From IMG/VR virus record IMGVR_UViG_3300011113_000664, positions 64,001 through 128,000 of that record: a stretch of 64,000 bases of DNA. The stretch is one strand, 5' to 3'. The position numbers and the translations under genes are program-made. This DNA comes from a virus. The notes below the pieces were generated by a model. The model had not been told where the DNA came from. It ran no database searches and saw only the letters and a program-made list of their open reading frames with translations. Shown piece by piece: positions 2,993 to 17,958 of this stretch (positions within the stretch are counted from its first letter, which is position 1; the number at the start of each line of letters is the position of its first letter).

Positions 2993-3251
2993 TTTTATTA
3001 TCTTTAATCTTTTCTTTAATTACTATAGTATTTTGCTCAGTCTTATCTATTTGAGTTTGTAGAGAATCAATTAATATTTGTTTTTCTTTATTTATTTTAT
3101 CTAATTCTTGTATTTTTGCTTCTTTCTGACTTATTAAGTCATCATTATTTTCTTCTTTTTTAAAAAAGAATGTATAAACAAAATAATAACCTAAAAATAA
3201 ATTTAAACAAAAAGCAACACTTAATAAAAATTTTAAATAACTATTACTCAT
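2898..3251 (-). CDS. N-terminal TM plus coiled-coil protein (i-spanin/Rz-like)
   Basis: Single N-terminal TM helix followed by a long heptad-rich region; Rz/Rz1-like overlap. Confidence 0.5.
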   Translation of the reverse strand: MSNSYLKFLLSVAFCLNLFLGYYFVYTFFFKKEENNDDLISQKEAKIQELDKINKEKQILIDSLQTQIDKTEQNTIVIKEKIKDNKNEEKNIKTRINNMDDATLIRELSNEQFEFED

Positions 3252-3640
3252 TATTTTTCTGTGTTATCTTTCCAAATTTTAAAGTATTCTTTAACTTTTT
3301 GTAAAGTTGTAATGGCATCATCATCTAATTCAAGTTCATCAGAAGTAATTATTGGTTTATCTTTTTCAACATCATATGTAAAAGATAATTTACCATCATA
3401 TTTTTCACCTTTAACAAGTTTATCTGACATTTCAGTTACTTTTGAATCATTTGTTGCTTTTTCAAGAGTAGATTGTGCATCAGTATCAGCCATTTCTTCT
3501 GGTGTTGGCATATCAACATCCTCCCTTAAAAATGAAGATGAGATAGAATTGTTAGGTGTTTTCATACCTTTTGTTATTGCTAGTAACTTTTTAAGTTCAT
3601 CAACTTCTTTATTTGCTTTCTTCTGATTAAATCTAAACAT
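3251..3640 (-). CDS. Hypothetical protein, probably head-internal
   Basis: 129-aa ORF with late motif at 3651-3660 and an FLRE site after a basic N-terminus. Confidence 0.7.
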   Translation of the reverse strand: MFRFNQKKANKEVDELKKLLAITKGMKTPNNSISSSFLREDVDMPTPEEMADTDAQSTLEKATNDSKVTEMSDKLVKGEKYDGKLSFTYDVEKDKPIITSDELELDDDAITTLQKVKEYFKIWKDNTEK

Positions 3641-3650
3641 AATATTTTAA

Positions 3651-3675
3651 TATAAATAGTTTTTTTCTAATTATA
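3651..3675. promoter_or_regulatory. Back-to-back late-promoter motifs (minus ACTATTTATA; plus TCTAATTATA)
   Basis: Recurrent motif in a divergent intergenic region. Confidence 0.7.
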
Positions 3676-3692
3676 TGTATAAAATACGATTT

Positions 3693-6380
3693 ATGTCAAA
3701 AAATTATTTATCGGATAAACTAAGAGCATTACCTTTCTATGATGAAGTAACAAGAGCAGGTGGTAAAATATATGCTGTTGGTGGACCTGTTAGAGATTTT
3801 ATTTTGGGTAAACAATCTAAAGATTTAGATATTATTGTTACAGGAATTGAATATGATTTATTGCAAGGTATTTTAGAAAACTATGGTAAGACTGATTTAG
3901 TTGGTAAATCATTTGGTATTATTAAATTTAAAGAAACACCGACTAGTGAAGAAATAGATGTTGCACTTCCTCGTACAGAAAAGAAAACAGGACAAGGTTA
4001 CCAAGGATTTGAAGTAACTGTTGACCCTAATATGTCAGTAGAGGATGAAATGAGAAGAAGAGATATTACCATTAATAGTTTAGCTATGGATGGTGATGGA
4101 AATATTATTGACCCATTTAATGCTCTTAATGATATAAAAAATAAAAATATTAAAGCAACATCAAATGAAAGTTTTTCGGAAGACCCATTAAGAATGTTGC
4201 GTGTTGTACAATTTGCAACAAGGTTTGGTTTTAACATTGATTCTCAAACAGAAGAAATGATTAGACAAAATGCAATGCTAATAGAAGAAATTTCTCCTGA
4301 AAGATATATTATTGAATTTGATAAAATAGTTTCAAAAGGTAACCCAACCCAAGGTGTTAAATTGCTTGTAGATTTAAATTTATTTGTACCAATATTTGGT
4401 TTTGTATATTCGGGTGATTTTAAAAACTTTGATAAAGTTAAGTCTATTGGTGAGTTTTTATATTTATGTACTTTTACACCTCAAAATTCAGCACAGAAAT
4501 TTTTTTTTGAAATTATTAAAAAAAGATTTGGTTCTGCATTAGCAGATAAGGTTAAAAAAGAAATTGAATCCTTAACAAATTTAAGTTTGTTTGGACAAGA
4601 CAAAGTTGAGAATCTTTTTACATTAATGAAGATGTATAAACTTTCTCCTGAAACAATACAAAATTCATTATTAATACCTAATGAATTAAAACAAATGGCT
4701 CAAAAATATCCAATGGATGTTAAACAACTTGATATTACAGGTATGGATATTATGGGATTAGGTTTTAAGGGTAAAGATATTGGTGATAAAATAATTGAAA
4801 TATTTAAAGCTATTTTTTCTGACCAAATACCAAATCAAAAACAATCAATAATTGATTATCTTAAAAAAAATAAACTAAATGAAAACGAATCAATGGAAAC
4901 ACCAAGAATAACATCATTTAGACAATTGGTTGAAAAATCACCAAAAGAATTAAAAGACATTTTATATTCAAACTGGCAAGCAAAACAAAATCCTAAATGG
5001 CATCCTGAAGGGAATACACTAAAACATATTATTGTTGTAACAAATAGAGCAATTAATAAACAACCATATAATATCAATTTGATATTAGCAGGTTATTTTC
5101 ATGATTTAGGTAAAATGGCGACTTATGAAATTTCACCTAAAACAGGACAACCAACTGCTTATGGGCATGAAGATGTATCTGCTGACTTAGTTAATAAATA
5201 TCAAGATTTTATTACTGAATTAGGTGGTAATCCTGAAGTGGTAAATTATATTGTAAAAAATCATATGAAAATGAAACCTACCACTTGGGATGTAATGAAA
5301 GATGCAAAGAAGGATGTTATAAAATCAAATCCTAGTTTTTCTGATTTAGAAACATTTTCAACAATTGATAAAGGTGGTTTAAATGAAAAACAAGAATTAA
5401 AAGGTGGTAAAGCAGACAAATTAACTTTGGGTAAAATTGCCGAAATACATAATATTAAAATTGAGAAATTAATACCTCAATTAAAATTAGGTATTAAGAC
5501 TGAAATGGAACATACTAATGATAAAAAACAAGCAAAGGAAATAGCATTAGACCATTTAGCTGAAAATCCAAAATACTATACAAAACTTAAAAAAGCAAAG
5601 TTAGAAGAAACTATTATTAATTCATTAAAAACATCTTTTATTGAATCTGAAAACATACCATCTAAATTAAAATCAGATGTTGAGATTGAATATCATAAAA
5701 GTTTAAATCCTTATTTCTGGTTAAACAATCATTTAAAAAGTAATATCAGAAAAAATCTTTTGAATCTTGGTAAATATTATTTTAAAAGTTTAGAATTAGA
5801 CCCAAAGGTAAAATTAAAAGATATAATTTTTACAGGTAGTTTAGCAAACTATAATTATACAGATTCATCTGATATTGACTTACATATTGTTATTGATTAT
5901 AAAGATGTGTCAGATGATGTTGATTTTGTAATGAATTATTTTTTACAAAAAAGGGCAGCATGGGAAGTATCAAATGATGTAAAGATTGGTAATTATCCTG
6001 TTGAGATATATGTTCAAGATATAAATGAACAAACTGTTGGTAAAAGTGCAATGTATTCAATACTTACTAATAAGTGGATTAAGAAACCAAAGTATAAATT
6101 ACCTGAAGTTGATAGGCATTTAGTTACACAAAAAGTTAATAAGTATTTAGATATCTTTAATAAGATATCAATGATGAAAGACTCATTAAAGAAGATTGAA
6201 AGTTATAATAAAGTACTTAAAAAGATTAAGAAAGAGCGTGGTGAAGCAACTCAAAAGGAAGGTGAATTTTCGGTAAATAATTTAGTTTTCAAAGTTTTAA
6301 GAAACAAAAAAGTATTTGATATCATTAAGGATGATAAAAAAGAAATAGTAAATAACGTATTTTCTATAAATTCTAACTAA
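3693..6380 (+). CDS. cca: Four-domain fusion: CCA-adding tRNA nucleotidyltransferase + HD phosphohydrolase + DUF5661-like + Pol-beta-type nucleotidyltransferase
   Basis: VGGPVRD..DLD, RRDITIN, EDPLR (class II NTase); HPEG..H, HDLGK, GHE (HD domain); GIKTEMEH..ALDHLAENPKYYTKL; TGSLANYNY..SDIDLH..EIYVQD. Start moved from 3675 to 3693 because the promoter motif overlaps 3675. Confidence 0.85.
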   Translation: MSKNYLSDKLRALPFYDEVTRAGGKIYAVGGPVRDFILGKQSKDLDIIVTGIEYDLLQGILENYGKTDLVGKSFGIIKFKETPTSEEIDVALPRTEKKTGQGYQGFEVTVDPNMSVEDEMRRRDITINSLAMDGDGNIIDPFNALNDIKNKNIKATSNESFSEDPLRMLRVVQFATRFGFNIDSQTEEMIRQNAMLIEEISPERYIIEFDKIVSKGNPTQGVKLLVDLNLFVPIFGFVYSGDFKNFDKVKSIGEFLYLCTFTPQNSAQKFFFEIIKKRFGSALADKVKKEIESLTNLSLFGQDKVENLFTLMKMYKLSPETIQNSLLIPNELKQMAQKYPMDVKQLDITGMDIMGLGFKGKDIGDKIIEIFKAIFSDQIPNQKQSIIDYLKKNKLNENESMETPRITSFRQLVEKSPKELKDILYSNWQAKQNPKWHPEGNTLKHIIVVTNRAINKQPYNINLILAGYFHDLGKMATYEISPKTGQPTAYGHEDVSADLVNKYQDFITELGGNPEVVNYIVKNHMKMKPTTWDVMKDAKKDVIKSNPSFSDLETFSTIDKGGLNEKQELKGGKADKLTLGKIAEIHNIKIEKLIPQLKLGIKTEMEHTNDKKQAKEIALDHLAENPKYYTKLKKAKLEETIINSLKTSFIESENIPSKLKSDVEIEYHKSLNPYFWLNNHLKSNIRKNLLNLGKYYFKSLELDPKVKLKDIIFTGSLANYNYTDSSDIDLHIVIDYKDVSDDVDFVMNYFLQKRAAWEVSNDVKIGNYPVEIYVQDINEQTVGKSAMYSILTNKWIKKPKYKLPEVDRHLVTQKVNKYLDIFNKISMMKDSLKKIESYNKVLKKIKKERGEATQKEGEFSVNNLVFKVLRNKKVFDIIKDDKKEIVNNVFSINSN

Positions 6381-6398
6381 TTATATTAAAATATTGTC

Positions 6399-6920
6399 AT
6401 GACTAACAAACAACTATATAATTTAATTTTTGAAAATTTTGTTCAAGCTAAGAGAGAATTAATTAGAGAAGGTTATACAAAAAAACATTTAGATGAAGTT
6501 GATTTCAATGAAATCTTTGGTAGAACTAAATCATTAATGCAAGAAAAGAAAATTGAATCTCTTAAAAGAGAAAATGAAATGCTAAAAAAACAACTTAGCA
6601 AAAAGCAAGGTTTAAAAGAAGCTGGTTCAATGAGTGCTGCCGAAATGGGTAAGCAAACAGGTGGCGCAGGTTCTGAAAGTATATGGAATTTTTTAACAAA
6701 AGTTGGTGCTAAATTAGGCAGTAAAACTGCAAAGGCTGATGTTATTGCTGATGAATTAGAAAAAAATAATCAGTTAAATAGTAGTGATATTGATAAATTC
6801 AAATTTAAATATATAAGATTTAAAAAATCAGGTTTAAATGATATGCAAGCCACAGAAAAAGCATTGGATGAATTGAGAATGCAGAATTTAGCTGAAAGTA
6901 AAAAAAGAAGAAGATATTAA
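6399..6920 (+). CDS. Hypothetical putative internal head protein
   Basis: Late motif ACTAATTATA at 6376-6385; IFE/IRE/LKE/LAE sites. Confidence 0.7.
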   Translation: MTNKQLYNLIFENFVQAKRELIREGYTKKHLDEVDFNEIFGRTKSLMQEKKIESLKRENEMLKKQLSKKQGLKEAGSMSAAEMGKQTGGAGSESIWNFLTKVGAKLGSKTAKADVIADELEKNNQLNSSDIDKFKFKYIRFKKSGLNDMQATEKALDELRMQNLAESKKRRRY

Positions 6921-6949
6921 TAAATAAAATAGATAAAATTTATAATAAA

Positions 6950-8125
6950 ATGATTAAAAGAGCAGATGCAAGTAAAATTAGTAGAGAGAAAGCAACTAAA
7001 GAACAGATTGCTGAAAACTTTAAAAGGTTAGCTGTTGATACTGATAAAAAAGTTCAATTAAAACCTTCTCTATTAAAGATTCAAAAAACTTTGGATGGAA
7101 ATACTTTTGGTATTATTCACGAAAATAAAACTTATTACTTAAAATATACAACTAAAAAAGGAAGTACTAATCCTGCTGATTTTAAACATTTAGATGGGTT
7201 AAATGCTACTTTTGGTATTGAGAAACATAATTCTTTTGAAAAAGCAACAAATAAAATGACATTCATTTGTGAAGCACAAAATAATGCTCATAAATTAAGA
7301 TTGCTTCTTGAGAAAGATGAGGATATTACTGATGATGCTGAAACATCAGAACCTAGTGTAGATAACAAAGAAACTAAAATCACTAGTGATGAAAAAGAGC
7401 AAGACCTTATTGCATCATTAGATAAAAAAGAAACACCACCTGCTGCCCCTGCTGCTGATATGGGTGGTGTGGAAACACCTGCTGCTCCTGCTGCTGATAT
7501 GGGTGGTGTGGAAACACCTGCTGAAGAACCTGTTGATACACAACCAAAAGGAGACTCACCTAAAGATATTGCTGATGAACTTTTAGGTCCTGAAGGAATT
7601 GGTGGTGAAGAAACACCTGCTGAAGAACCTGCTACACCTGAAGGTGGTGAAGAAACACCTGCTGAAGAACCTGCTGCTGATACTACTGCTACACCTGAAG
7701 AACCTGCTGAAGAAGTTGACCCTAAAAAGGCATTTCAAGAAGCTGTTGGTAAATTAGGACAAACTATTAATGACCTTCAAGATAATGAACAATTTGATGA
7801 AAAGGACATTAAAAATGCGATGAATAGTCTTATTAGTGCTATTGGTTCTGAAGGTTTTAAAATGGTTGGTGATAAAGTTGTTGATTCTTTCATTAAAAAA
7901 ATGAAAGGTTCACAAGAAAAAATTGATACAGAAGAAACCCCTGCTGAAGAAACCCCTGCTGAAGAAGTACCTGCTGAAGAAGAATCAACTGAAAAATTAG
8001 ATGAAAATCTTTTAAGACAATTAAAAGCTGAATCTAAAAAATTATTAAAAGAACAATTACAGCAAGAAATTGAAAAAAGAAAAAGAACTATTCTAATTGA
8101 AAGTATTAAAAGAAAATTAATTTAA
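6950..8125 (+). CDS. Acidic, Pro/Ala/Glu-repeat putative prohead core protein
   Basis: 391-aa ORF with ETPAEE repeats between folded ends; LLE/LDE/LKE/LIE sites. Confidence 0.7.
   Translation: MIKRADASKISREKATKEQIAENFKRLAVDTDKKVQLKPSLLKIQKTLDGNTFGIIHENKTYYLKYTTKKGSTNPADFKHLDGLNATFGIEKHNSFEKATNKMTFICEAQNNAHKLRLLLEKDEDITDDAETSEPSVDNKETKITSDEKEQDLIASLDKKETPPAAPAADMGGVETPAAPAADMGGVETPAEEPVDTQPKGDSPKDIADELLGPEGIGGEETPAEEPATPEGGEETPAEEPAADTTATPEEPAEEVDPKKAFQEAVGKLGQTINDLQDNEQFDEKDIKNAMNSLISAIGSEGFKMVGDKVVDSFIKKMKGSQEKIDTEETPAEETPAEEVPAEEESTEKLDENLLRQLKAESKKLLKEQLQQEIEKRKRTILIESIKRKLI
7439..7516 (+). repeat. Tandem 39-bp coding repeat (PAAPAADMGGVET x2)
   Basis: cctgctgcYcctgctgctgatatgggtggtgtggaaaca occurs twice; related GGEETPAEEPA and ETPAEE repeats at ~7601-7675 and ~7934-7980. 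Confidence 0.9.
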
Positions 8126-8126
8126 T

Positions 8127-8534
8127 ATGTTATTAATAATTTCACAAATTATACCAACTACACAAATTATTTTTGCAGCATTATCTGCAATAGTTGGTAC
8201 TATTTTAACATATGTATTTGTAATACCTGTATTACAAAATAAAATTAATGGTTTAGAGGAAGAAAGAAAAGCTCAAAAGGAAACTTTTGAAAGAATAAGT
8301 TCAGATGTTGGTGAAATTAAAACAAGAATTGCAATATTAGAAAGTTCTGATAGTAAAATGACTAAATTAATTGATGAGTTATTTGATTCTGAAAAAGAAA
8401 ATAATGATAAATTTCAAATAATGATTCAAAAAAATACTGAGGCTATTACTAAATTAGAAGCAACACTTCAAAATTTAAATGAACACACAAAAAAATTAGA
8501 CGATTTCTTTACTAGATTTTTAGAAAAGAAATAA
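8127..8534 (+). CDS. N-terminal TM plus coiled-coil membrane protein (possible holin/lysis accessory)
   Basis: One hydrophobic helix followed by heptad repeats. Confidence 0.5.
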   Translation: MLLIISQIIPTTQIIFAALSAIVGTILTYVFVIPVLQNKINGLEEERKAQKETFERISSDVGEIKTRIAILESSDSKMTKLIDELFDSEKENNDKFQIMIQKNTEAITKLEATLQNLNEHTKKLDDFFTRFLEKK

Positions 8535-8550
8535 TTTTTATTATTTATTT

Positions 8551-8988
8551 ATGGAAAAAGAATATATTAATATTGAACCTATTAAGGTTCAAGAAACCGA
8601 TTTAAAATTAGTTTATGTAAATCCTGTCGGTGAAACCCATAATGGTTCACAAAAATTAGAATTTATATTTTCAAATAATCCTGATGATTGTATTGGCCCT
8701 CAATGGGAAGATGTATGTGATTTAGGTGTTTATCCACCAAGAAAGGGATTCATTAAAAAAGTAATGGAAGTTACATCTGATTCAATTGAGTTTGATTGTA
8801 TTGTAGATTCTTCGGAATTTAGAATGCTTGATGCTGTATTTGGTGTTGTAGCACTCGCTTGGGAATATGTGGAAGATTATAGAAAGATGTCTTCGTTAAA
8901 CAAAAGTCTTGTTGTTTTTAGATATGGCGATTCATATTATGATGTTCGTGAAGTATTGAGAAACAATGATATTAAGTTTGAGGACTAA
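8551..8988 (+). CDS. Hypothetical protein upstream of terminase
   Basis: 145-aa ORF with normal composition and position. Confidence 0.7.
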   Translation: MEKEYINIEPIKVQETDLKLVYVNPVGETHNGSQKLEFIFSNNPDDCIGPQWEDVCDLGVYPPRKGFIKKVMEVTSDSIEFDCIVDSSEFRMLDAVFGVVALAWEYVEDYRKMSSLNKSLVVFRYGDSYYDVREVLRNNDIKFED

Positions 8989-9003
8989 TTAAAATAAAAC
9001 CAC

Positions 9004-10782
9004 ATGACCAAACATGAACTAATGATGGAGTATGCCAAGTGCGCTATTGATATAGAGTACTTTGCAAAAAAATATTGTAAAGTTTGGGATAAGAAAAAAC
9101 AACAGTTTGTACCTTTTCAATTATTACCACAACAAATTCAAGTATTAGAAACTTACAAAGAAAGTAATAGAGTATTGGTTGCTAAATATCGTCAAGGTGG
9201 TATTACAACTGTAACTTGTTTATATTTAGCACATTCAATTGTTTTCAGAAAAGATATTAAAGTTGGTGTTGCTGCTAACAAATTAAAACTTGCAAAGGAA
9301 AGTATCTTTTATCAAATAGCATCTATTATTAATAATTTACCAAGAGAAATATTTAATAGAATACCAACTGATTCAGATACAAAAGAAATCAAGATTTATA
9401 ACAATGGTGCAACACTACAGGCTTTCGCAGCATCTGCCGATGGTCTTCGTGGTTTTACACCTGATATATTATTTATAGATGAAGCTGCGTTCCTTGAAGA
9501 AGGTGAAGAATTTATGTCTTCTGCATCAGGTACAATGTCAGCAGGTGGTCAGATTATATTAAACTCCACACCAAGAGGTCTTGACCCAACATATTATGCT
9601 CGTTATGAAGGAGCAAGAACAAAGAAAAATAACTTTAAAGTTGTTGAAATTAATTGGTTTGAAGACCCTCGTTATAATGAAGATTTAATTTGGATTAGGG
9701 GTGATGAATTTGTTGAGGAAAAAGACCCTGAAAAATATATGCAATTAAGAGTTAATGGTTATAGACCATCATCTTCTTGGTTTAGAGATATGTGTCAAAC
9801 ATTCAATAATGACCCAAGAAAAATTGCACAGGAATTAGAAAATAAATTCTTAGGTTCAGGTGGTAACCTTGTTGATGAGGAAACCATTATGAGAATTGAA
9901 AAGACTTGTAAAGAACCAATCAAAACAGAGTTTGATAATCACTTTTGGATTTGGGAAGAACCGATATTTGGTTATGATTATTATTTAGCTTGTGATGTTG
10001 CAAAAGGTAGTGGCGATGGTGACTACTCTACAATTCAAATATTTAAAAATGACATGGCAAACATGTTACTTGTTCAAGTTGCTGAATATCAATCAAGAGT
10101 ACCGCTTGAAGTAATGGGTGAATTATGTTTACAATATGGTGAAAAATATAATAATGCTTATGTGATTGTCGATGTTACAGGAGGTTGGGGTATATCTGTT
10201 ATTAGATATTTGGTAAATAAAAAATATAAAAAAATACATTACGATAGGCCAAGACAAAATGATGTAAAGATTCAATTAAAAAATTTACAAAGAGGTGAAT
10301 TACAACCGGGATTCACAATGAAAAATGGTGCTATTCGTGATTATGTTATTAGAGAATTTGAAAGAAGATTAAGAGAAGGTGAAGCATTAATTCATTCAAT
10401 AAGATTACTTAGTGAAATTAAAACATTTGTATTTAATGACAACACAAATAGATATGACCACATGCGTTCAGCACATGATGACTTATTAATTGCAACAGGA
10501 ATGTTATTTGCTGTTTATATGTTTTCTAAAACAATTGGAAATGAATTTAATATTTATTTGAATTATGCAAAGTCAGCAATTGTAAGGAAGGGTGATGAAT
10601 TTACAGATGCAAATGCAGAGTTTCAAAAGAAAATGCTAAGTCAAGATGGACAAGATGTAAATTATGAAAGAAAGAATGATATGATAAAGGGTAAGGATTG
10701 GTATACAAATGGTAACAGCATAGATGTACCTGAACGTCAAACACCAAAAATAAATAATAACCCTTACATATTTGTTAGATAA
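9004..10782 (+). CDS. terL: Terminase large subunit (T4 gp17-like)
   Basis: KYRQGGITT Walker A variant, ILFIDEAAF Walker B, STPRG motif III, ACDVA..G..DYS and HDDLLIA nuclease motifs. Confidence 0.95.
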   Translation: MTKHELMMEYAKCAIDIEYFAKKYCKVWDKKKQQFVPFQLLPQQIQVLETYKESNRVLVAKYRQGGITTVTCLYLAHSIVFRKDIKVGVAANKLKLAKESIFYQIASIINNLPREIFNRIPTDSDTKEIKIYNNGATLQAFAASADGLRGFTPDILFIDEAAFLEEGEEFMSSASGTMSAGGQIILNSTPRGLDPTYYARYEGARTKKNNFKVVEINWFEDPRYNEDLIWIRGDEFVEEKDPEKYMQLRVNGYRPSSSWFRDMCQTFNNDPRKIAQELENKFLGSGGNLVDEETIMRIEKTCKEPIKTEFDNHFWIWEEPIFGYDYYLACDVAKGSGDGDYSTIQIFKNDMANMLLVQVAEYQSRVPLEVMGELCLQYGEKYNNAYVIVDVTGGWGISVIRYLVNKKYKKIHYDRPRQNDVKIQLKNLQRGELQPGFTMKNGAIRDYVIREFERRLREGEALIHSIRLLSEIKTFVFNDNTNRYDHMRSAHDDLLIATGMLFAVYMFSKTIGNEFNIYLNYAKSAIVRKGDEFTDANAEFQKKMLSQDGQDVNYERKNDMIKGKDWYTNGNSIDVPERQTPKINNNPYIFVR

Positions 10783-10792
10783 AATATTTATA

Positions 10793-10802
10793 TCTATTTA
10801 AA
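10793..10802 (+). promoter_or_regulatory. Late-promoter motif TCTATTTAAA (portal)
   Basis: Recurrent motif. Confidence 0.65.
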
Positions 10803-10823
10803 AGAAACGTATTTTAATTAGAT

Positions 10824-12632
10824 ATGGCAGAAGATAATAAAGGTCTATTTTCAAATATTAATACTTTCTTTAGAAGAGCAACCGATGCTTTAGATAGTAC
10901 GCAAGGTAGGCTTGAAGCACCTGTAGAAAAACAATTTATAACAGCAGCTTCTCAAGAAGATGCAATTAAAACAGCAGTAGAAGATGGTGCTATAAAATTT
11001 TATAGAGGTCAAAGTACTAAAATTGATAGAGGAAACGACCAACGCAAGTTGATGTATGAATCTAGTAGAATGATGCTCTACTATGATTACCTATCAATGG
11101 ATGGGTATCCGATTTTAGGTGCTGCATTAGATTTATTATCAGAAGAAGCAACAACTACTAAAAGTGATACAGGACAAATATTAAATATTTATTCATCTTC
11201 TGAAAAAGTTAGAAAAGAACTTGAAAGATTCTTTTATAAAGTTATGGATGTTAATACCAATTTATTTTATTGGTGTAGAAACATGTGTCAATATGGTGAT
11301 AACTTTGTTTATTTAGAACTTTCAAAAGAAAATGGTATTGTAGATTTTAGACAACTTGCATCTCAATTTGTTGAAAGAAATGAAAAATATGATACTAAAA
11401 ATAGATTCAGAGCATTCTTCAAATATAAAGACCCAAACTCAGGTGGTGAAGAAGAATACATGGATTATCAAGTTGCTCACTTTAGATTATTAGGAACAGG
11501 TGATAGACTTCCGTATGGTTGTAGTGTATATGAAAAAGTAAGAAGAACATATAAGCAACTCTTTATGATGGAAGATGCGATGATGGTATATCGTATTACA
11601 AGAGCAGCAGAAAGAAGAATTTATAAAGTTCCTGTTGGTAATGTTCCTCCTGAAGATGTTCCACAAATTCTTGAAGCATTTGCAAACAATGTAAAGAAAA
11701 AGAAATTAGTTGACCCTAAGACAGGTGATATTAACTTTAAATATAATATCGCATCAATGGATGAAGATATCTTTATTGCTGATAGAGGAAATTCATCAGG
11801 TAATTTTGTTGATACACTTCCTGGTGCATCTAATCTTGAAGCAATTTCTGATATTAATTATCTTCGTGATAATTTATTTACAGGTTTAGGAATCCATAAA
11901 ACATTACTTGGTTTTTCATCTGACCAAGCATCAGGTGATGGTAAAAATTTATCAATGCTTGATATTCGTTTTGCAAGAAAAGTAAATCGTATTCAACAAG
12001 CCTTACTTGGCGAACTTAATAAAATTGCAATCATCCATTTAGGACTACTTGGTGGTGATTATGAATCATATATTGATGATTTTAAATTATCACTTAATAA
12101 CCCATCAACAGCATCTGATTTATTACAACTTGAAATTTGGAAATCTAAATTAGAGGTTTATGGACAAGCTACAACACCTAATCAGAATACAGGATTAAAA
12201 CCGATGTCAGAAATGATGGCAAGAAAGAAATTCTTCCATATGTCTGAAGAAGATATTATCAATGACCTTCAAGAGCAAATGCTTGAGTCTAAGATTGGTG
12301 AAGAGGTTAAGGGTGCAGGTATGTTAATTAAAACATCAGGTGTGATGGATAAAATGATTAAATACAAAAACGCAGGATTTAAAGTTGAAGGACAACCACA
12401 AGGTGAACAACAACAAATAGATAATAGTCTTGGAGGTGGTTTAGGTGGTGCTGAAATGGGTGGTGGCGCACCTCCATTAGGCGGTGGACTTGAAGCAGGT
12501 GGTGGCGCACCTCCATTAGGGGGTGGTGAGGGTAGTTTACCACCACTAGCAGGTGGAGGAGGTGGAGCAGGTTTTTTAAGTGAAGAAATATTTAAAAAAA
12601 CTGCTGAATTAGATAGATTAATAAAAGAATAA
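10824..12632 (+). CDS. Portal protein (T4 gp20-like)
   Basis: MEDAMMVYRITRAAERRIYKVPVGNVP and TLPGASNL..ISDINY match gp20 signatures; position after TerL. Confidence 0.95.
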   Translation: MAEDNKGLFSNINTFFRRATDALDSTQGRLEAPVEKQFITAASQEDAIKTAVEDGAIKFYRGQSTKIDRGNDQRKLMYESSRMMLYYDYLSMDGYPILGAALDLLSEEATTTKSDTGQILNIYSSSEKVRKELERFFYKVMDVNTNLFYWCRNMCQYGDNFVYLELSKENGIVDFRQLASQFVERNEKYDTKNRFRAFFKYKDPNSGGEEEYMDYQVAHFRLLGTGDRLPYGCSVYEKVRRTYKQLFMMEDAMMVYRITRAAERRIYKVPVGNVPPEDVPQILEAFANNVKKKKLVDPKTGDINFKYNIASMDEDIFIADRGNSSGNFVDTLPGASNLEAISDINYLRDNLFTGLGIHKTLLGFSSDQASGDGKNLSMLDIRFARKVNRIQQALLGELNKIAIIHLGLLGGDYESYIDDFKLSLNNPSTASDLLQLEIWKSKLEVYGQATTPNQNTGLKPMSEMMARKKFFHMSEEDIINDLQEQMLESKIGEEVKGAGMLIKTSGVMDKMIKYKNAGFKVEGQPQGEQQQIDNSLGGGLGGAEMGGGAPPLGGGLEAGGGAPPLGGGEGSLPPLAGGGGGAGFLSEEIFKKTAELDRLIKE

Positions 12633-12665
12633 TAATTTATACTATTTATATTAAACACAAAAAAA

Positions 12666-13430
12666 ATGGTAAATTTTGGTAATGTCAAGTCAAAATTAAA
12701 TAAAGCTTATTCTCAAGATTTAATTGAAAATACAAGTAATTATAAAAAACTGTATGAAGAGTTTTTAAAAACAATTAAATCATCCACTGTTCTAATGTTA
12801 GAATATACAATTTATGAGAATTTAAAAAAACATAATCTTGAATACAATGAATCACTAAGATTCATTGAAGCTAATATTTCTGCTTTATCTAAAATTGACA
12901 AAACTGAATTACTAAAAGAAAATAAAAAACTTGAAAAGTTTGATTTAAAAGAAATAGAATTATCAGAAGATAAAATTCAATTAAATCAAAACATTGAAAA
13001 TGTTATTAATGAAAGTGTGTTTAAAAAAATAACCAATGTTAATAAACTTCATGAATCTGTAAATTTTTTAATTGAATCATTAACAAAAAAAGATGAAACA
13101 AAATTAGAAAAGACAGATAAAGGATTTAAGGTTAGTCATATTTTTCATTTAGCTAAAAAGAAATTAGAAGAGAAATTTTCAAATCTTCAACCTGATGAAA
13201 TGGAAATTATTTCAACTTTTATTAAAGGTGATGAAAAAAAGAAAAAAACAGTTTTTGAAAATTATAAAAAGACAACAAAGAATTTTCTTCTAAATGAAAA
13301 AGATAATATTAGTTCAGAGGTATTAACCGAAACATTTGATTTTATTGATACTTTGGAATATGATTCTGAAACAGCTATTAATAACTTGTCCAAACTTTTT
13401 GAGATTAAAAATCTAAACTCAAACAAATAA
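12666..13430 (+). CDS. Putative prohead core protein
   Basis: Lies between portal and protease; helical, with LIE/INE/LHE sites. Confidence 0.6.
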   Translation: MVNFGNVKSKLNKAYSQDLIENTSNYKKLYEEFLKTIKSSTVLMLEYTIYENLKKHNLEYNESLRFIEANISALSKIDKTELLKENKKLEKFDLKEIELSEDKIQLNQNIENVINESVFKKITNVNKLHESVNFLIESLTKKDETKLEKTDKGFKVSHIFHLAKKKLEEKFSNLQPDEMEIISTFIKGDEKKKKTVFENYKKTTKNFLLNEKDNISSEVLTETFDFIDTLEYDSETAINNLSKLFEIKNLNSNK

Positions 13431-14131
13431 TGAAAGAAATACAACTACTAAAAGAAGGACAGGAAGGATATGGTTTATTAGTAGAAACTGATGCAGGTAT
13501 TATTAGTAATGATTTAACCATAAATAATAAAAAAATATTTGAAGATTTAAATTCAAAATATAGAAGAAATGATTTTGATGGTCATTTCTATATTGATTGT
13601 AAACTTCAGGAAGCTGATGTGTTAAATCGTAATGGAAGAGTGTATCCAAGAGAAATATTAGCAAAACAAATAGATGAATATCAAAAACTTATTAATGATT
13701 ATGCAGCACTTAATGAGGCTGACCATCCCGAAAGTGTCACCATTTCTTTACAGAATATATCTCACAGAATCGCAAAAACTTGGTGGTCAGGTAATGCTGT
13801 TTTTGGAACTCTTGATATTATCGTTAGCGATTCATTCATGAGAGATGGTATTGGTTGGACAATTGGTGATAAAATTGCTCTTTACTTGCAAAGAAATCTT
13901 AAACTTGGTATTTCTTCAAGAGGATTGGGTAGTGTTAAAAAAGTAGGTGGAAAAAATATTGTTCAAAATGATTTTGAACTTATTTGTTTTGACTTAGTAG
14001 CGACACCATCTACACCTAATGCTTATTTATTTTTGGAAACAAAAAATGATACTTTAAAAGAATCTGTAGAAATACAAAACAATAATGTAAAAAAATATGA
14101 TGATTCAATAAGAAAAATAATTGGTGGTTAA
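13430..14131 (+). CDS. Prohead protease (T4 gp21-like)
   Basis: NRNGRVYP, EADHP, ISH, LGISSRGLGS, FDLVATPSTPNA. Confidence 0.95.
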   Translation: MKEIQLLKEGQEGYGLLVETDAGIISNDLTINNKKIFEDLNSKYRRNDFDGHFYIDCKLQEADVLNRNGRVYPREILAKQIDEYQKLINDYAALNEADHPESVTISLQNISHRIAKTWWSGNAVFGTLDIIVSDSFMRDGIGWTIGDKIALYLQRNLKLGISSRGLGSVKKVGGKNIVQNDFELICFDLVATPSTPNAYLFLETKNDTLKESVEIQNNNVKKYDDSIRKIIGG

Positions 14132-14166
14132 TTTTTTTACTAATTAAATATAGATAATAAAATAAA

Positions 14167-16140
14167 ATGAATAATAAAAAATCTTTATTACAAGATAGTT
14201 TGCAAGAACTAGAAAATATCAAGAATGAATCTTTGGAACTTGCCAAAGAACAATTGATTAATGAAAGTGCTGACTTGTTAGAAAAAAAATCTGCTGAATT
14301 ATTTGAAAAACTAATTGCAGGTGAAGATGTAGAAGAAGAAAGCAAAGAAGAAGAAAAGGAAGAGGACAAAGAAGAGGACAAATCATTAAATGAAATATTA
14401 AATGAACTTAAAGATTTCTCAGATGAAGAAGATGAGGATGAAATGTCTGATGATGAGGATGAAATGGAAGATTCAGAAGATGAAGAAGAAATGTCATTAG
14501 ATGCTTTAAGAAAAGCAGCAGAAGAACAAGGTTTTAAATTAGTTCAAGCCGATTCTGATGAAGAAGATATGGAATCAGATGAAGAAGATATGGAAGATTC
14601 GGAAGATGAAGAAGAAATGGAGGATTCGGATGATGAAGAAGACATTGAATTTAATGATGAAGAATCGGATGATGAATTTTCTGATGTTGATGTTGATGAT
14701 AAAGTCTTAGCTGAACCAAGTGATGAGGAAGAAGAGAAAGAAGAAAGCTTTCAAAAAATAAATGAAAATTTTAAAAGAAATAATACTAAAATGAGAAATA
14801 CAAAAAAACAAGTTTTAAAAGATTTAAGAGATGTAAGCTTTAATAAATTGGTTGAAGCATATTACAACATGGGGGATAATGATTCTTTCATTATTAAAGA
14901 AAATGAATATATAGATGAAGATTTATATGAAGGTGACCCAAATGATAAATATGATGATTATGCACCAGACCCTGATTCTGAATATGAAAGAAGATTTGAA
15001 ATTGATTCAGATATGGATGAAACTGAGCCTTATGATGATGAAGAAATGGATGATGAAGAAATGGATGATGATATAATATATGAAATTGATATGCCTGAAG
15101 GTAGGTATGACATGGAATCAATGTCTGATGAAGGTTATGAAATGACTGATGAAGATATTAATGAAATGCTTGCTGAAATGGGTATAGATGAAGATGTACC
15201 TTCTAGAGAGCAAGGTTCTGCTTATCGTACTCAAGAAAAACATAGACATTTTAAAGGCGATATTCATAACTATCATGATGAACTTGAAGAATCTATTGCT
15301 ACTAGAACAAGAGATAAATTTGTTAAACAAGGTCTTGGTGGTCATACTTCTGCTGAAAAAACTGAACTTGAAGAAATGTTTGAAGAAATGTCAATGGAAG
15401 AATTGATGGAAATGGAAAGAATGCTTCAAGAAGATGGGGATGGTGCTGAAGAAGGGTTTGAATCAGGTCAAGATGGACAAGGTGGTGCTGCTATGTCTAA
15501 ACATGCTAGATTTAAAAAAGATTATATGGATAAGCAAGATTTAACCGAAGCTGAAATTGAAGAAATATTATCATCAATGAAAGAAGAGGAAGATATAGAA
15601 GAAGGTATGTCTTTAAGACGTTCTCAAGCTAATAAACATCAAGCACCTAGTCCTAGAAATAGAGAAGAAAGAATCAGACCATTAGCTGAAGAAGATATGG
15701 AAGAAGTTGAATCTTTAAGAGAACAACTTAAAAAACTTAAAGCTGAAAATAAATCCTTGAATGAAGGTTTTACAAATAAAGTTAAATCATTAGAGAATAA
15801 AGTCTATGATGTAACGATTAGTGCATTAAAAGCAGGATTTGTAAACAAGTTTTTACTTGAGCATCCTTTAAGAGAGAATGAAAAATTACAAATCATTCAT
15901 CGCTTTGCAAATGCACAAACTAAAGAGCAAATTAAAGAAACTTATATTTCATTAACAAATGAGTTTGCAAAAGGGCAAACAGTTAAAGATGGTTCAATGT
16001 TGAATGAATCAGTACAAAATAAAGTTGGTAAAGTTCATAGAACTGACAATGTAGTTGTCACGGAAAAGAACTTGATGAACGAAAATGATGAAACTAATAG
16101 GTTTAAACAATTACTTAACTATAATTTTGGTAGGAAATAA
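14167..16140 (+). CDS. Prohead scaffolding protein (highly acidic)
   Basis: Lies between protease and MCP; D/E-rich low complexity with a coiled-coil C-terminus; late motif at 14139-14148. Confidence 0.8.
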   Translation: MNNKKSLLQDSLQELENIKNESLELAKEQLINESADLLEKKSAELFEKLIAGEDVEEESKEEEKEEDKEEDKSLNEILNELKDFSDEEDEDEMSDDEDEMEDSEDEEEMSLDALRKAAEEQGFKLVQADSDEEDMESDEEDMEDSEDEEEMEDSDDEEDIEFNDEESDDEFSDVDVDDKVLAEPSDEEEEKEESFQKINENFKRNNTKMRNTKKQVLKDLRDVSFNKLVEAYYNMGDNDSFIIKENEYIDEDLYEGDPNDKYDDYAPDPDSEYERRFEIDSDMDETEPYDDEEMDDEEMDDDIIYEIDMPEGRYDMESMSDEGYEMTDEDINEMLAEMGIDEDVPSREQGSAYRTQEKHRHFKGDIHNYHDELEESIATRTRDKFVKQGLGGHTSAEKTELEEMFEEMSMEELMEMERMLQEDGDGAEEGFESGQDGQGGAAMSKHARFKKDYMDKQDLTEAEIEEILSSMKEEEDIEEGMSLRRSQANKHQAPSPRNREERIRPLAEEDMEEVESLREQLKKLKAENKSLNEGFTNKVKSLENKVYDVTISALKAGFVNKFLLEHPLRENEKLQIIHRFANAQTKEQIKETYISLTNEFAKGQTVKDGSMLNESVQNKVGKVHRTDNVVVTEKNLMNENDETNRFKQLLNYNFGRK

Positions 16141-16194: not shown

Positions 16195-17958
16195 ATGTAC
16201 GGAATTACCGAAATCCTTAACTCTGGAAAAGTTGGTCAAGAATACCGCCAACTTAGAGAACAGCGTGAATTGATTACCGAAAAGTGGAATCAGTTCGGCT
16301 TGCTTGATGGCCTTGAAGGTCACATGGCTGAAAACATTGCTCAATTGTATGAGAACCAAGCTTCTTATCTCATTAACGAATCTACTGATGCTACATCTTC
16401 AGGTTCTTTTGAGACAGTTGCGTTCCCAATCATCAGACGTGTTTTCCAAAAATTACTTGCAAACGAAATCGTATCAGTTCAGGCTATGAACATGCCGATT
16501 GGTCGTTTGTATTTCATTAACCCTAAAATCTCTGTTAGAACTAACAATGCACATTCTCCATTTGATGGTGTATTTAATAATGCTGCTAACAACTATAACC
16601 CTGCAAACCATGCAACAAGTCCATACACCAAAACAGGTGGTACAACTTTTCAAACTACTTCTCTTTACGATTCTTTCTATAACACAGGAAGTTCTTTAGA
16701 TGATGATGGTGGTCTTTTTGATAGAACTAAGGGTACGATTTATACAAATAGTCCTACTTTACAAGTAATGGCAGGTTCTATTCTTTCAGGTTCGGTTGCT
16801 TCTAGAGTAACAACTAGATTAACCGGTTTTACTACTACTAACGAAGGTAAATTACAAGGACCTGTTGGACTTCCAGTTGATACTGAGTCTTTTTTAATGG
16901 GTCTTAAAGTTACTTGTAATCAAACTTTGATTGCAAGAGTTGGTGATACTAGTTATAATATTAATGCAGGTGATTCTATTCCATTTAGAGTACCAATGCA
17001 AGCATATGGTAAAGAATTAGTGGCTAAAGGTACTAATTATATTACTCTTGAGCTTTTATTAGATGGTCCTAGTTCAGCAGGTGTTTATGGTGTAAGTCCA
17101 AGTACTGCAACTACAGGTGGCTATTCTGCTTCTACTGGTCCATTAGCATTTACTGCTACTTATAGAATATATTCTCCTATGGAAGAAGATGCTAATATTC
17201 CTCAAGTAACATTTACTTTCGATTATATTGATGTATCTGTTGAGAAAAGAATGTTAGGTGCTACCTTTACACCTGAACTTCAGCAAGATGTTAATGCTTT
17301 CCACTCAATTGATGTTGAAGCTGAATTAACTGCTCTTCTTTCTGAGGTTGTATCAGGTGAAATTGACCGTGAAATTCTTCGTGACCTTCGTAAATCTGCT
17401 TCCCATGTTGAATTCTTCGATTGGGGTGGTTATGACAGAAGAATTACTTCAGGTGGTCTTGCACTTACTCGCAAAGATTATAACCAAGATTTGATTACTA
17501 AGATTAACCAAATCTCTGCTAAAATCATGAAATTCACTCTTCGTGGTGGTGCTAACTGGGTTGTATGTTCTCCTGAAGTTGCTGCAATCTTTAATGACCT
17601 TGAGTACTTCCATGCTTCTGATGCTTCTGCTGAAGAAACTAAGTTCTCTTTAGGTATTGAGAAAGTTGGTAATGTAGCTAACAGATACACAGTATATGTT
17701 GATGCTTATGCTCCTGCTGGTGTTGTTCTTGTAGGACACAAAGGAGATTCAATCTTCCATGCAGGTTACATCTACGCTCCATATGTACCGTTGATGCTTA
17801 TGCCTAAAACCATTAACCCTGCTGATTTCAAACCTGTAATGGGTATCATGACTCGTTATGCTAAGAAGGTTGTTAACAACAGGTTCTATGGTAAAGTAAT
17901 GGTTCAGGGTCTTCCTGTTGCTTCTCCTAACGAATTCATGTTAGATACAATTTCCTAA
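16195..17958 (+). CDS. Major capsid protein (T4 gp23-like)
   Basis: PIIRRVF..LLANEIVSVQAM..P.G, ELQQD..AFH.IDVEAEL, EIDREI, AGYIYAPYVPL, GIMTRY. Confidence 0.97.
   Translation: MYGITEILNSGKVGQEYRQLREQRELITEKWNQFGLLDGLEGHMAENIAQLYENQASYLINESTDATSSGSFETVAFPIIRRVFQKLLANEIVSVQAMNMPIGRLYFINPKISVRTNNAHSPFDGVFNNAANNYNPANHATSPYTKTGGTTFQTTSLYDSFYNTGSSLDDDGGLFDRTKGTIYTNSPTLQVMAGSILSGSVASRVTTRLTGFTTTNEGKLQGPVGLPVDTESFLMGLKVTCNQTLIARVGDTSYNINAGDSIPFRVPMQAYGKELVAKGTNYITLELLLDGPSSAGVYGVSPSTATTGGYSASTGPLAFTATYRIYSPMEEDANIPQVTFTFDYIDVSVEKRMLGATFTPELQQDVNAFHSIDVEAELTALLSEVVSGEIDREILRDLRKSASHVEFFDWGGYDRRITSGGLALTRKDYNQDLITKINQISAKIMKFTLRGGANWVVCSPEVAAIFNDLEYFHASDASAEETKFSLGIEKVGNVANRYTVYVDAYAPAGVVLVGHKGDSIFHAGYIYAPYVPLMLMPKTINPADFKPVMGIMTRYAKKVVNNRFYGKVMVQGLPVASPNEFMLDTIS

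What the first reader, a model, noticed from the sequence alone, without database searches (positions are those of the whole stretch)
3693..6380. Late-expressed CCA / HD / DUF5661-like / NTase fusion with protease-type sites at the domain joints: candidate virion-delivered tRNA-repair polyprotein
Seen: four recognisable modules in one ORF, with joints at KLNE|NESM (~4875-4883), GLNE|KQE (~5379-5387) and KLEE|T..FIE|S (~5600-5650). The HD module lies after the CCA tail domain (LDITG.DI..LG.KGKDIG) rather than inside the enzyme as in E. coli Cca, so this looks like concatenation of independent genes. The gene carries the structural-gene promoter motif and sits among head genes. Known: T4 gp21-type proteases cut after [L/I]-x-E; CCA enzymes and their HD domains repair tRNA 3' ends; host defences attack tRNA. 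Inferred: the protein is packaged in the prohead, cut into separate enzymes and ejected with the DNA as a pre-made RNA-repair or counter-defence kit. The substrate of the second NTase is unknown.
Basis: partly seen in the sequence, partly recalled or inferred. Interest (0 to 1): 0.85.

Follow-up and report, generated by a model that had tools for sequence, protein, structure and literature searches.

The report
Phage multi-enzyme cargo protein with cut-sites
An uncultured T4-like jumbo phage makes, from a late promoter just ahead of its head genes, one long protein that strings a tRNA-end repair enzyme pair to two other modules, and every joint (here and in hundreds of shuffled relatives) carries the short motif that the T4-type head protease cuts, so it is probably loaded into the capsid, cut into separate enzymes and injected, though neither cutting nor packaging has been shown.

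Summary
ORF 3693-6380 (895 aa; ATG 3675 is probably false) has four modules: a CCA-adding enzyme, an E. coli-Cca-type HD phosphohydrolase, DUF5661 and an unstudied phage nucleotidyltransferase (NT). They are joined at LNE (4875-4883), LNE (5379-5387) and LEE (5601-5609).

In this protein alone [LI]xE is at chance level (15 seen, 11 expected). The signal is comparative:
- Close relatives drop or insert modules exactly at these motifs.
- In distant homologs, 247 of 314 module boundaries have [LI]xE within 12 residues (91.5 expected). Control motifs are flat.

The phage has a T4 gp21-type protease (Peptidase_S77). Its capsid protein has INE|S at residue 62, and its scaffold-like protein has 30 sites against 14.6 expected. 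The gene shares the structural-gene promoter motif. It sits at a hypervariable locus before terminase and portal, where relatives carry anything from a 322-aa core to a 2398-aa version with ART-PolyVal and Acb1-like domains.

So this is a polyvalent protein (Iyer et al. 2017) that seems to rely on the prohead protease instead of a built-in peptidase. Cleavage, packaging and injection remain inferred. It also lacks the N-terminal leader that other late proteins of this phage carry. This scan has reached similar readings on other DNA (e1-5318696, e1-5319993).

The parts
3666..3675 (+). Promoter-like motif TCTAATTATA (WCTAWTTAWA), 17 nt before ATG 3693
   Evidence: 26 copies against 10.1 expected. 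The same motif precedes TerL, portal, the scaffold-like gene and the major capsid gene. Late timing is inferred from that association.
3693..6380 (+). Polyvalent protein gene (895 aa from ATG 3693; the frame is open from 3675)
3693..4883 (+). Module 1: class II CCA-adding enzyme (head, neck, body, tail), residues 7-403
   Evidence: closest solved: 6ibp and 1miv CCA-adding enzymes. GGPVRD, DLD, RRD and EDPLR motifs are visible.
4875..4883 (+). Joint 1: L-N-E, then NESMET
   Evidence: Lies in a low-confidence coil between folded domains. P0005 lacks HD and is joined exactly here.
4884..5387 (+). Module 2: HD phosphohydrolase of the E. coli Cca type, residues 404-571
   Evidence: weak fold matches to binuclear HD enzymes. 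Free-standing forms of 156-230 aa exist.
5379..5387 (+). Joint 2: L-N-E, then KQELKGGKAD
   Evidence: Low-confidence coil. Relatives whose protein begins with DUF5661 start MKGGKAD three residues later.
5388..5609 (+). Module 3: DUF5661, a small helical domain with invariant E-x-E-H-T ... D-H-L-x-E ... Y-Y, residues 572-645
5601..5609 (+). Joint 3: L-E-E, the slot where relatives insert further modules
   Evidence: Predicted inside a long helix. May be partly intrinsic to DUF5661.
5646..6377 (+). Module 4: pol-beta-type nucleotidyltransferase core plus helical bundle (phrog_36119), residues 658-901
   Evidence: invariant G, S-D-x-D, H, W, R, N, K, R; pLDDT 92
13430..14131 (+). Prohead protease, T4 gp21 family; has LKE ending at residue 9, as T4 gp21 has LIE-9
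   Evidence: T4 parallel from PMC9026906
14167..16140 (+). Acidic scaffold-like protein at the gp22 position, 30 [LI]xE sites against 14.6 expected
16372..16380 (+). I-N-E at residues 60-62 of the gp23-type capsid protein, the likely propeptide cut (T4 gp23 is cut after E65)

Best explanation
The gene encodes a 'beads-on-a-string' polyvalent protein of a T4-like jumbo phage, probably infecting Bacteroidota.

Shown:
- It joins four independently folding modules. A constant DUF5661 plus nucleotidyltransferase (NT) core is found at this locus in all close relatives. A CCA-adding enzyme and a Cca-type HD phosphohydrolase have been added at the N-terminal side.
- It carries the promoter-like motif of the head genes and opens the terminase-portal-protease-capsid block.
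- In relatives, modules are gained, lost and swapped at this locus.
- Joints in this protein and across the wider family carry [L/I]-x-E.
- The phage encodes a gp21-type protease, and its own capsid and scaffold-like proteins carry the same motif where T4 proteins are cut.

Inferred:
- The protein is made late and incorporated into the prohead.
- The prohead protease cuts it after the joint glutamates into free enzymes, which are ejected with the DNA.
- The CCA enzyme and HD module then restore tRNA 3' ends. HD would remove a 2',3'-cyclic or 3'-phosphate, and CCA addition would rebuild the end, before any phage gene is expressed.
- The NT module would nucleotidylate an unknown RNA or protein target.
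- The prohead protease would thus play the part that built-in zincin peptidases play in other polyvalent proteins.
For: Modules and their independence.

Exact joins at the motif in close relatives:
- P0005 joins CCA to DUF5661 at ..NLNE|KQELKGG.
- P0004 joins HD to NT at ..GGLAE|EEKIPSKL.
- P0006 has a different N-terminal module joined at ..NNLNE|.
- P0003, P0007-P0020 and L004 insert further modules after LEE|, each closed by LKE|, IME| or IEE|.

Distant homologs:
- 247 of 314 boundaries have [LI]xE within 12 residues against 91.5 expected. Controls: [LI]xD 0.84x, [LI]xQ 0.88x, [AG]xE 0.56x.
- Every boundary type shows a peak at or right beside the boundary (a sharp one-bin peak at most, a broader one at the CCA and HD N-terminal borders), while two control motifs show no peak there.
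- After removing redundant junctions and counting only sequence outside the shared module: 66 of 175 against 34.6 expected, p = 3e-8.

Joints 1 and 2 lie in low-confidence coil between domains modelled at pLDDT 93-98.

Protease and its substrates in the same phage: Peptidase_S77, gp20 and gp23 homologs. The capsid protein has 5 of its 6 sites in the first 62 residues, ending INE|S. [LI]xE seen against expected: scaffold-like protein 30 against 14.6, core-position protein 13 against 6.2, protease 7 against 2.8.

Promoter motif.

Conserved locus with variable content. At the same position, L048 holds a 2398-aa version with ART-PolyVal, RES and Acb1-like 2H domains.

Homologous modules carry cleavable leaders elsewhere: HD proteins begin MNLQE|SIRRILRE|E, NT proteins begin MKLF..LIE|N..LDE|ID, and Cr30 gp180 begins MRKFSQLLE|D.

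tRNA-repair theme: the closest CCA relatives are fused to a 2H cyclic phosphodiesterase and a HAD_SAK_1 phosphatase, and sit beside RlaP and Thg1 genes.

T4 precedent for head cargo trimmed by gp21: PMC3012670 and PMC9026906.
Against: - No experiment bears on packaging or cleavage.
- The protein has no N-terminal leader, although this phage uses a conserved leader on at least seven other late proteins. How it would reach the prohead is unexplained.
- [LI]xE is not enriched within this protein alone.
- The LEE after DUF5661 lies in a predicted helix. Related endings occur in phages without an S77 protease, and Cr30's free-standing DUF5661 simply ends in LKE. That joint may therefore be a domain end rather than a selected cut site.
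- In the cultured T4-like phage Cr30, DUF5661 and NT are separate genes among replication and tRNA genes, not head genes.
- In other phages the CCA fusions sit among RNA-repair genes rather than head genes.
- Many boundaries counted are inherited, so the number of independent events is smaller than the counts.
Confidence: 0.52

Rival explanations
1. It is an intact, cytoplasmic 'Swiss-army-knife' RNA-repair enzyme that is never packaged. It is made late to keep tRNAs serviceable during heavy late translation. The [LI]xE motifs are helix-end or linker features, or leftovers of leaders from once-separate late genes, with no present proteolytic role.
For: - CCA relatives fused to 2H and HAD_SAK_1 domains lie among RlaP, Thg1 and kinase genes, a typical repair neighbourhood.
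- E. coli Cca works as one CCA+HD polypeptide (NF008137 match).
- This protein has no N-terminal leader.
- Cr30's modules are free-standing among replication and tRNA genes.
- Cr30's DUF5661 protein ends in LKE, so the motif can be a natural domain end.
Against: - Linker composition alone does not explain the signal. Other x-x-E motifs rise only 1.3-1.65x against 2.7x for [LI]xE, and [LI]xD and [LI]xQ are not enriched.
- The motif is kept while the linker sequences around it differ (LNE, LKE, LAE, IME, IEE, LTE).
- The family shares its frame with ART-PolyVal and Acb1-like counter-defence modules, which are useful only early in infection.
- The locus is fixed at the head-gene block in relatives.
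Confidence: 0.3
2. The CCA module is a housekeeping enzyme that matures the phage's own tRNAs, whose genes lack an encoded CCA end. The fusion to the other modules is incidental.
For: The two tRNA genes found by ARAGORN on the contig are not followed by CCA. CCA-adding enzymes are common in jumbo phages (PMC7824862; 533 phage records matched).
Against: - Close relatives with 96% identical terminase lack the CCA and HD modules altogether, so the function is dispensable and recently acquired at this locus.
- The promoter motif is that of structural genes, not what a tRNA-maturation function would be expected to need early.
- This reading does not explain the joints or the pairing with end-healing domains.
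Confidence: 0.12
3. The motifs at the joints are coincidence in a K/E/L/I-rich protein.
For: 15 [LI]xE sites against 11.1 expected in this protein, about one site per 60 residues.
Against:: enrichment and sharp positional peaks at boundaries across hundreds of homologs, with flat controls.
Confidence: 0.03

Closest known systems
Polyvalent proteins of phages and conjugative elements (Iyer, Burroughs, Anand, de Souza, Aravind 2017; PMC5512222)
   Same: Several unrelated enzymatic domains in one polypeptide. Encoded by a phage with a portal-terminase system. Predicted to be packaged, processed into units and delivered with the DNA. Homologs in the same frame carry the catalogued ART-PolyVal and LPD23 domains.
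   Different: - There is no built-in zincin or other peptidase domain. The joints instead carry the motif of the phage's own prohead protease.
[quoted passage not shown]
- Two DUF5661 proteins from phage records without an S77 match carry an HExxH motif, which fits the contrast but is anecdotal.
Phage T4 internal proteins IPI-III and Alt: capsid targeting sequence plus gp21 cleavage after [L/I]-x-E (PMC3012670, PMC9026906)
   Same: T4-type head module with a gp21-family protease. Late genes at a fast-changing locus. The same cleavage-type motif. Enzymes delivered pre-made as counter-defence (Alt, IPI).
   Different: T4 cargo has a 10-20 residue N-terminal targeting peptide and one cut, or for Alt two. 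Here there is no N-terminal leader, the motifs are internal, and they would release several enzymes from one chain.
E. coli multifunctional CCA addition/repair protein (NF008137)
   Same: CCA-adding head/neck plus an HD phosphohydrolase in one chain. The HD module matches the HD region of that model.
   Different: Here a complete Bacillus-type enzyme with its own body and tail (NF009814 positions 8-394 of 396) is followed, after a flexible LNE joint, by a separate HD module that also exists free-standing.
'Swiss Army Knife' RNA repair proteins (Pfam HAD_SAK_1, PF10307) and phage RNA-repair sets (RlaP, Thg1, Pnkp/Rnl; PMC7824862)
   Same: The nearest CCA relatives are 2H-CCA-HAD_SAK_1 fusions next to RlaP and Thg1 genes. 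The theme is end-healing plus nucleotide restoration.
   Different: A different healing module (HD), no ligase or kinase, fusion to DUF5661 and NT, and a position in the head-gene block.
Ejection and inner-body proteins of phiKZ, 201phi2-1 and SPN3US, processed by gp21-related proteases (PMC5694885)
   Same: Many head-internal proteins are cut after Glu at short motifs, often at several sites, with long propeptides.
   Different: Those proteases prefer small residues at P3 (A/S/G-x-E), and the pieces are propeptide plus one mature protein, not a chain of enzymes.

Membership tests
Class II CCA-adding enzyme (tRNA nucleotidyltransferase) | Pol-beta head domain with GGxVRD...DxD, and the neck RNA-binding domain | tested here: met
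   PF01743 76.5 bits (cut-off 23) and PF12627 56.4 bits (cut-off 22). GGPVRD and DLD are visible.
Class II CCA-adding enzyme (tRNA nucleotidyltransferase) | RRD and EDxxR motifs that select CTP/ATP; full-length body and tail | tested here: met
   RRRD and EDPLR are present. NF009814 aligns residues 17-400 to model positions 8-394 of 396.
Class II CCA-adding enzyme (tRNA nucleotidyltransferase) | Score above NCBIfam's equivalog cut-off | tested here: not met
   172.5 bits against a cut-off of 290. It is a divergent phage branch. CCA versus A- or CC-adding specificity is not settled by sequence.
HD phosphohydrolase, E. coli Cca type | H...HD...H...D metal ligands; HD/HDIG profile above cut-off | tested here: met
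   PF01966 26.7 bits (cut-off 22). HDIG 28.3 bits (cut-off 27.6) and NF008137 positions 215-286 at 1.3e-5.
HD phosphohydrolase, E. coli Cca type | 2',3'-cyclic phosphodiesterase or phosphatase activity | not testable with these tools
   Fold matches are only to generic binuclear HD enzymes (PhnZ, YhaM, an HD-bearing tRNA processing enzyme), all with E above 1e-3.
DUF5661 (PF18905) | Profile match above the gathering score | tested here: met
   57.6 bits against a cut-off of 27. Invariant E-x-E-H-T, H, E and Y-Y in 42 sequences.
Pol-beta superfamily nucleotidyltransferase | hG[GS]x9-13Dh[DE]h motif and a third carboxylate on the fold | tested here: met
   G-S...S-D-I-D is invariant in 54 sequences. 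The confident model has the NTase core, and its best core match is the MNT-like 2rff at Z 7.4.
Pol-beta superfamily nucleotidyltransferase | Membership of a named Pfam NTase family | tested here: inconclusive
   NTP_transf_2 scores 20.3 bits against a cut-off of 21, and Polbeta and MTPAP-like score below their cut-offs. Only phrog_36119, of unknown function, matches well.
Polyvalent proteins (Iyer et al. 2017) | Two or more unrelated enzymatic domains in one polypeptide of a phage or conjugative element | tested here: met
Polyvalent proteins (Iyer et al. 2017) | Phage context with a portal-terminase system; shares domains with catalogued polyvalent proteins | tested here: met
   The same-frame homolog P0086 has ART-PolyVal, and P0099 has LPD23 next to the HD module.
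Polyvalent proteins (Iyer et al. 2017) | Delivered into the host with the DNA | not testable with these tools
   Needs virion proteomics or an injection assay.
Substrates of a T4 gp21-type prohead protease | S77 protease encoded by the same phage, and [L/I]-x-E sites in accessible segments | tested here: met
   (PF03420, 81.6 bits). Joints 1 and 2 lie in low-confidence coil.
Substrates of a T4 gp21-type prohead protease | N-terminal capsid targeting sequence | tested here: not met
   The protein starts directly with the CCA module. The phage's own leader family is absent from it.
Substrates of a T4 gp21-type prohead protease | Actual cleavage and presence in virions | not testable with these tools
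   No cultured relative with a virion proteome was found.

The most novel reading that the evidence does not exclude
T4-like jumbo phages may build their injected counter-defence arsenal as chains of enzymes whose joints are written in the cleavage code of the prohead protease. On this reading one late gene next to the head genes can be re-loaded with new modules: tRNA 3'-end repair here, and ART, RES and Acb1-like modules in relatives. The capsid itself would then cut them apart, and the protease would replace the built-in peptidase of classical polyvalent proteins. The injected proteome of uncultured phages could be read from sequence, with a pre-made tRNA-end repair kit among the cargo.
Probability: 0.45. 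Interest if true: 0.8.

Novelty: new variant of a known kind. Interest (0 to 1): 0.68.

Why it matters
- It would link two known ideas that I did not find connected in print: polyvalent proteins, and T4-style head cargo trimmed by gp21. It would also give a simple rule, [L/I]-x-E at module borders in phages with an S77 protease, for predicting which enzymes uncultured phages carry into the cell.
- It would make RNA repair a pre-loaded activity rather than one expressed after infection. That bears on how phages escape tRNA-targeting defences that act within minutes.
- The constant NT module belongs to a very large phage family. Together the HD, DUF5661 and NT modules drew 8718 hits at E <= 0.001 among 50%-identity representatives. 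NT has no studied member, so any function found here would annotate thousands of genes.

Tried and rejected
- TATAAATA as the late promoter: not enriched (30 against 20.9 +/- 4.8).
- Nucleotide search of 3000-15000 against cultured phages: no match. No phage record covers 80% of the protein.
- Literature search for DUF5661: no paper. Searches joining polyprotein, prohead protease and ejection proteins found no description of this arrangement. The Burroughs and Aravind 2016 RNA-repair paper is not held.
- NT module against solved structures: by sequence only weak MNT and DrrA-type hits. Foldseek's best was CdnE at E 2.6e-4 with TM about 0.25. VIA-align gave nothing above Z 7.5, with the helical half matching generic bundles. 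Pfam RlaP (PF10127) did not appear among the hits, so I do not file NT as RlaP.
- HD module: no PDB match by sequence.
- DUF5661 as a mere targeting tag: doubted, because its invariant Glu and His residues look like a metal site. DUF5661 and NT as an obligate pair: rejected, since only 31 of 95 NT-bearing representatives have DUF5661. I therefore sent no complex prediction.
- A full-length alignment (A2) was dropped because fragments were misplaced. A 301-residue stretch was folded instead.
- The likeness of the HD N-terminus (RITSFRQLVE) to the phage's leader (RITESQLRGLV) was considered and set aside. That stretch aligns with the first helix of free-standing HD proteins.
- Whether the records holding P0025, P0027, P0050 and P0086 encode an S77 protease could not be checked, because those records are not held.
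Full report
**What is there.** The window is part of a 170-kb IMG/VR contig that CheckV rates 52% complete, with about 27% G+C. A single frame is open from 3675 to 6380.

- A complete class II CCA-adding enzyme. The head and neck domains score far above Pfam cut-offs. There is an end-to-end match to the Bacillus-type model NF009814, though below its equivalog cut-off.
- An HD/HDIG domain whose best specific match is the HD region of E. coli-type Cca.
- DUF5661.
- A C-terminal module that matches PHROG 36119 (function unknown) and has the G-S...D-x-D signature of pol-beta nucleotidyltransferases. I call it NT below.

The real start is ATG 3693. Homologs begin there. The bases between 3675 and 3693 are conserved untranslated sequence in relatives whose protein starts differently. 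The promoter-like motif overlaps 3675.

**The joints.** L-N-E, L-N-E and L-E-E lie exactly at the coordinates given. In this protein alone the motif is at chance level (15 sites, 11.1 expected). What makes the observation real is comparison.

Close relatives (65-93% identical in the shared parts) are combinatorial:
- One has the same four modules.
- One lacks HD, with CCA joined to DUF5661 at ..NLNE|KQELKGG.
- One lacks DUF5661, with HD joined to NT at ..GGLAE|EEK.
- One has a GNAT-like module in front, joined at ..NNLNE|.
- More than a dozen begin with DUF5661 (MKGGKAD, three residues after joint 2). These carry one to three other modules between LEE| and NT, each closed by LKE|, IME|, IEE| or LNE|.

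I then defined boundaries only from BLAST extents in representatives that are at most 50% identical to one another:
- 247 of 314 internal boundaries have [LI]xE within 12 residues, against 91.5 expected. [LI]xD, [LI]xQ and [AG]xE are at or below expectation, and other x-x-E motifs rise only 1.3-1.65-fold.
- Position histograms show a peak at or right beside every boundary type, for example 22 of 22 at the C-terminal end of CCA and 46 of 79 at the C-terminal end of NT; the peaks at the CCA and HD N-terminal borders are broader. The control motifs show no peak there.
- Counting only sequence outside the shared module, and only non-redundant junctions, gives 66 of 175 against 34.6 expected (p = 3e-8).

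A 2398-aa relative has only 30 sites in all (26 expected), yet by eye about a dozen of them sit at its module borders. Many junctions are inherited, so these are not all independent events. The neighbouring modules do differ widely.

**Structure.** A model of residues 380-680 (mean pLDDT 88) puts joints 1 and 2 in low-confidence coil (block means 63 and 55) between domains modelled at 93-98. Joint 3 lies in a long helix that extends from DUF5661.

The NT module folds confidently (pLDDT 92) as an NTase core plus a helical bundle. Its only close structural relatives are uncharacterised phage proteins. Solved structures match weakly: MNT-like core at Z 7.4, and CdnE and ANT enzymes at low TM-score.

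**The phage and its protease.** Downstream on the same strand lie:
- four small or acidic ORFs,
- a T4-type large terminase,
- a gp20 portal,
- a 254-aa protein,
- a Peptidase_S77 (gp21) protease,
- a 657-aa very acidic protein at the gp22 position,
- a gp23 capsid protein.

The capsid protein has five of its six [LI]xE sites in its first 62 residues, the last being INE|S. T4 gp23 is cut after E65. Seen against expected counts are 30 against 14.6 for the scaffold-like protein, 13 against 6.2 for the 254-aa protein and 7 against 2.8 for the protease. The protease count includes LKE ending at residue 9, matching T4's LIE-9 (PMC9026906). So the motif is used in this phage where T4 uses it.

**Expression and locus.** It lies 10-25 nt before this gene, TerL, portal, the scaffold-like gene, the capsid gene and other structural-type genes. 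That it is a late promoter is inferred from this association.

In five related contigs with about 96% identical terminase, the gene order from the divergent upstream gene through to gp23 is the same. At this position, however, they have only DUF5661-NT (322 or 335 aa) or DUF5661-ParB-like-NT. A more distant contig with the same order has a 2398-aa gene here: CCA, two ART-PolyVal, DUF5661, DUF3990, RES, an Acb1-like 2H phosphoesterase, and NT.

The locus is therefore a re-loadable slot with a constant DUF5661/NT frame. The family belongs with the polyvalent proteins of Iyer et al. 2017 (PMC5512222), which those authors predicted to be packaged, processed and delivered. They assign processing mainly to built-in zincin peptidases. 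This family has none. Two DUF5661 proteins from phage records without an S77 match do carry HExxH, which fits the idea but is only anecdotal.

**Function of the modules.** The nearest CCA relatives are fused to a 2H cyclic phosphodiesterase and a HAD_SAK_1 phosphatase. They sit beside RlaP, Thg1 and kinase genes. Pairing CCA addition with 3'-end healing is thus recurrent, and is achieved with non-homologous healing domains. This supports tRNA 3'-end repair for the CCA+HD pair.

The phage's own tRNA genes lack an encoded CCA, so a maturation role cannot be excluded. However, relatives with near-identical head genes do without these modules.

DUF5661 has invariant Glu, His and Tyr residues that look like a metal site. 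NT has invariant catalytic residues. Neither has a known substrate.

**For and against packaging.**

For:
- the border motif;
- the promoter motif and the locus;
- the protease;
- family ties to polyvalent proteins;
- leaders with cleavage-type motifs on homologous free-standing modules in other phages (MNLQE|SIRRILRE|E before HD, MKLF..LIE|N..LDE|ID before NT, and MRKFSQLLE|D on Cr30 gp180).

Against:
- This phage has its own conserved leader on at least seven late proteins. Of the genes with the promoter motif, 22 of 34 have [LI]xE in the first 30 residues, against 44 of 129 other ORFs. This protein has no leader.
- In Cr30 the two core modules are ordinary separate genes among tRNA and replication genes.
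- Joint 3 may be a domain end rather than a selected site.

I put the packaged-and-cleaved reading at about one half. The intact cytoplasmic repair enzyme is at about 0.3.

**Earlier notes of this scan.** Other agents reached similar readings on other DNA:
- e1-5318696: the short DUF5661-NT version at the same locus.
- e1-5319993: a triple nucleotidyltransferase polyprotein.
- e1-5380584 and e1-5369789: related cases.

I used e1-5667333 (the promoter motif) and e1-5678189 (the leader family) as leads and re-tested both here.

**Verdict.** This is a new variant of a known kind, namely polyvalent proteins and T4 head cargo.

Noticed in passing
Genome coordinates outside the window (G000:C1): 48638, 49691, 50043 (two copies, N-terminal and at residue 102), 50730, 9080, 10701 on +; 54533 and 40526 on -: A family of late-motif genes shares an N-terminal leader (MKKVRITE|SQLRGLVRRMIKE|E and variants) followed by unrelated bodies. 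One gene has a second internal copy. It looks like a T4-style capsid targeting sequence. A similar LKE|SIRRILKE|E follows the HD module in many distant homologs.
   Followed up: partly
window 6399-6920 and 6950-8125: The two genes after the polyvalent gene look like head-internal proteins. The 173-aa ORF has 6 [LI]xE sites against 2.4 expected and starts MTNKQLYNLIFE|N. The 391-aa ORF is acidic with ETPAEEP-type repeats, and is only 54-93% identical in relatives whose terminase is 96% identical.
   Followed up: partly
window 3675-3692: The apparent N-terminal extension MYKIRF is a conserved 5' leader. In relatives the same bases form a tiny out-of-frame upstream ORF ending at the real start.
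   Followed up: partly
Proteins P0003 and P0007-P0020 (relatives), between DUF5661 and NT: A roughly 290-aa module with a hydrophobic segment (..SLATAALGLGLMG..) and two copies of an unknown domain (..HGALGSKRL..TEASCDI..FTTRGSIG..) has no Pfam match. Other inserts are ParB-like (DGRHR) or unassigned.
   Followed up: partly
L048:2595-9791 (protein P0086): At the same locus before terminase and portal, a 2398-aa protein combines CCA, two ART-PolyVal, DUF5661, DUF3990, RES and an Acb1-like 2H phosphoesterase with the NT module. An anti-CBASS-type domain therefore appears in a probable head-cargo chain.
   Followed up: partly
L010 and L030 (DUF5661 proteins of phage records with no Peptidase_S77 match): Both carry an HExxH zincin-type motif in the same polypeptide. 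The S77-bearing relatives examined have no peptidase domain.
   Followed up: no
L049:2151-2363 and 3505-4212 (Caulobacter phage Cr30 gp177 and gp180): In this cultured T4-like phage, DUF5661 and the NT module are separate genes flanking tRNA-Pro and tRNA-Met genes. gp180 begins MRKFSQLLE|D, much like the T4 targeting peptide. gp177 ends in LKE.
   Followed up: partly
L052:5601-7698 compared with L050:6001-8145: The 2H cyclic phosphodiesterase is a separate gene in one phage and fused to CCA-HAD in another. The separate CCA gene starts MITE|V and has TATAAATA 12 nt upstream.
   Followed up: no
Genome coordinates 8479-8553 and 48490-48574: The two tRNA genes that ARAGORN calls (Met, Leu) are not followed by an encoded CCA.
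   Followed up: no
window 3651-3660 (-) and 3666-3675 (+): Two copies of the promoter-like motif sit back to back in the 52-nt divergent spacer, one for each flanking gene.
   Followed up: no
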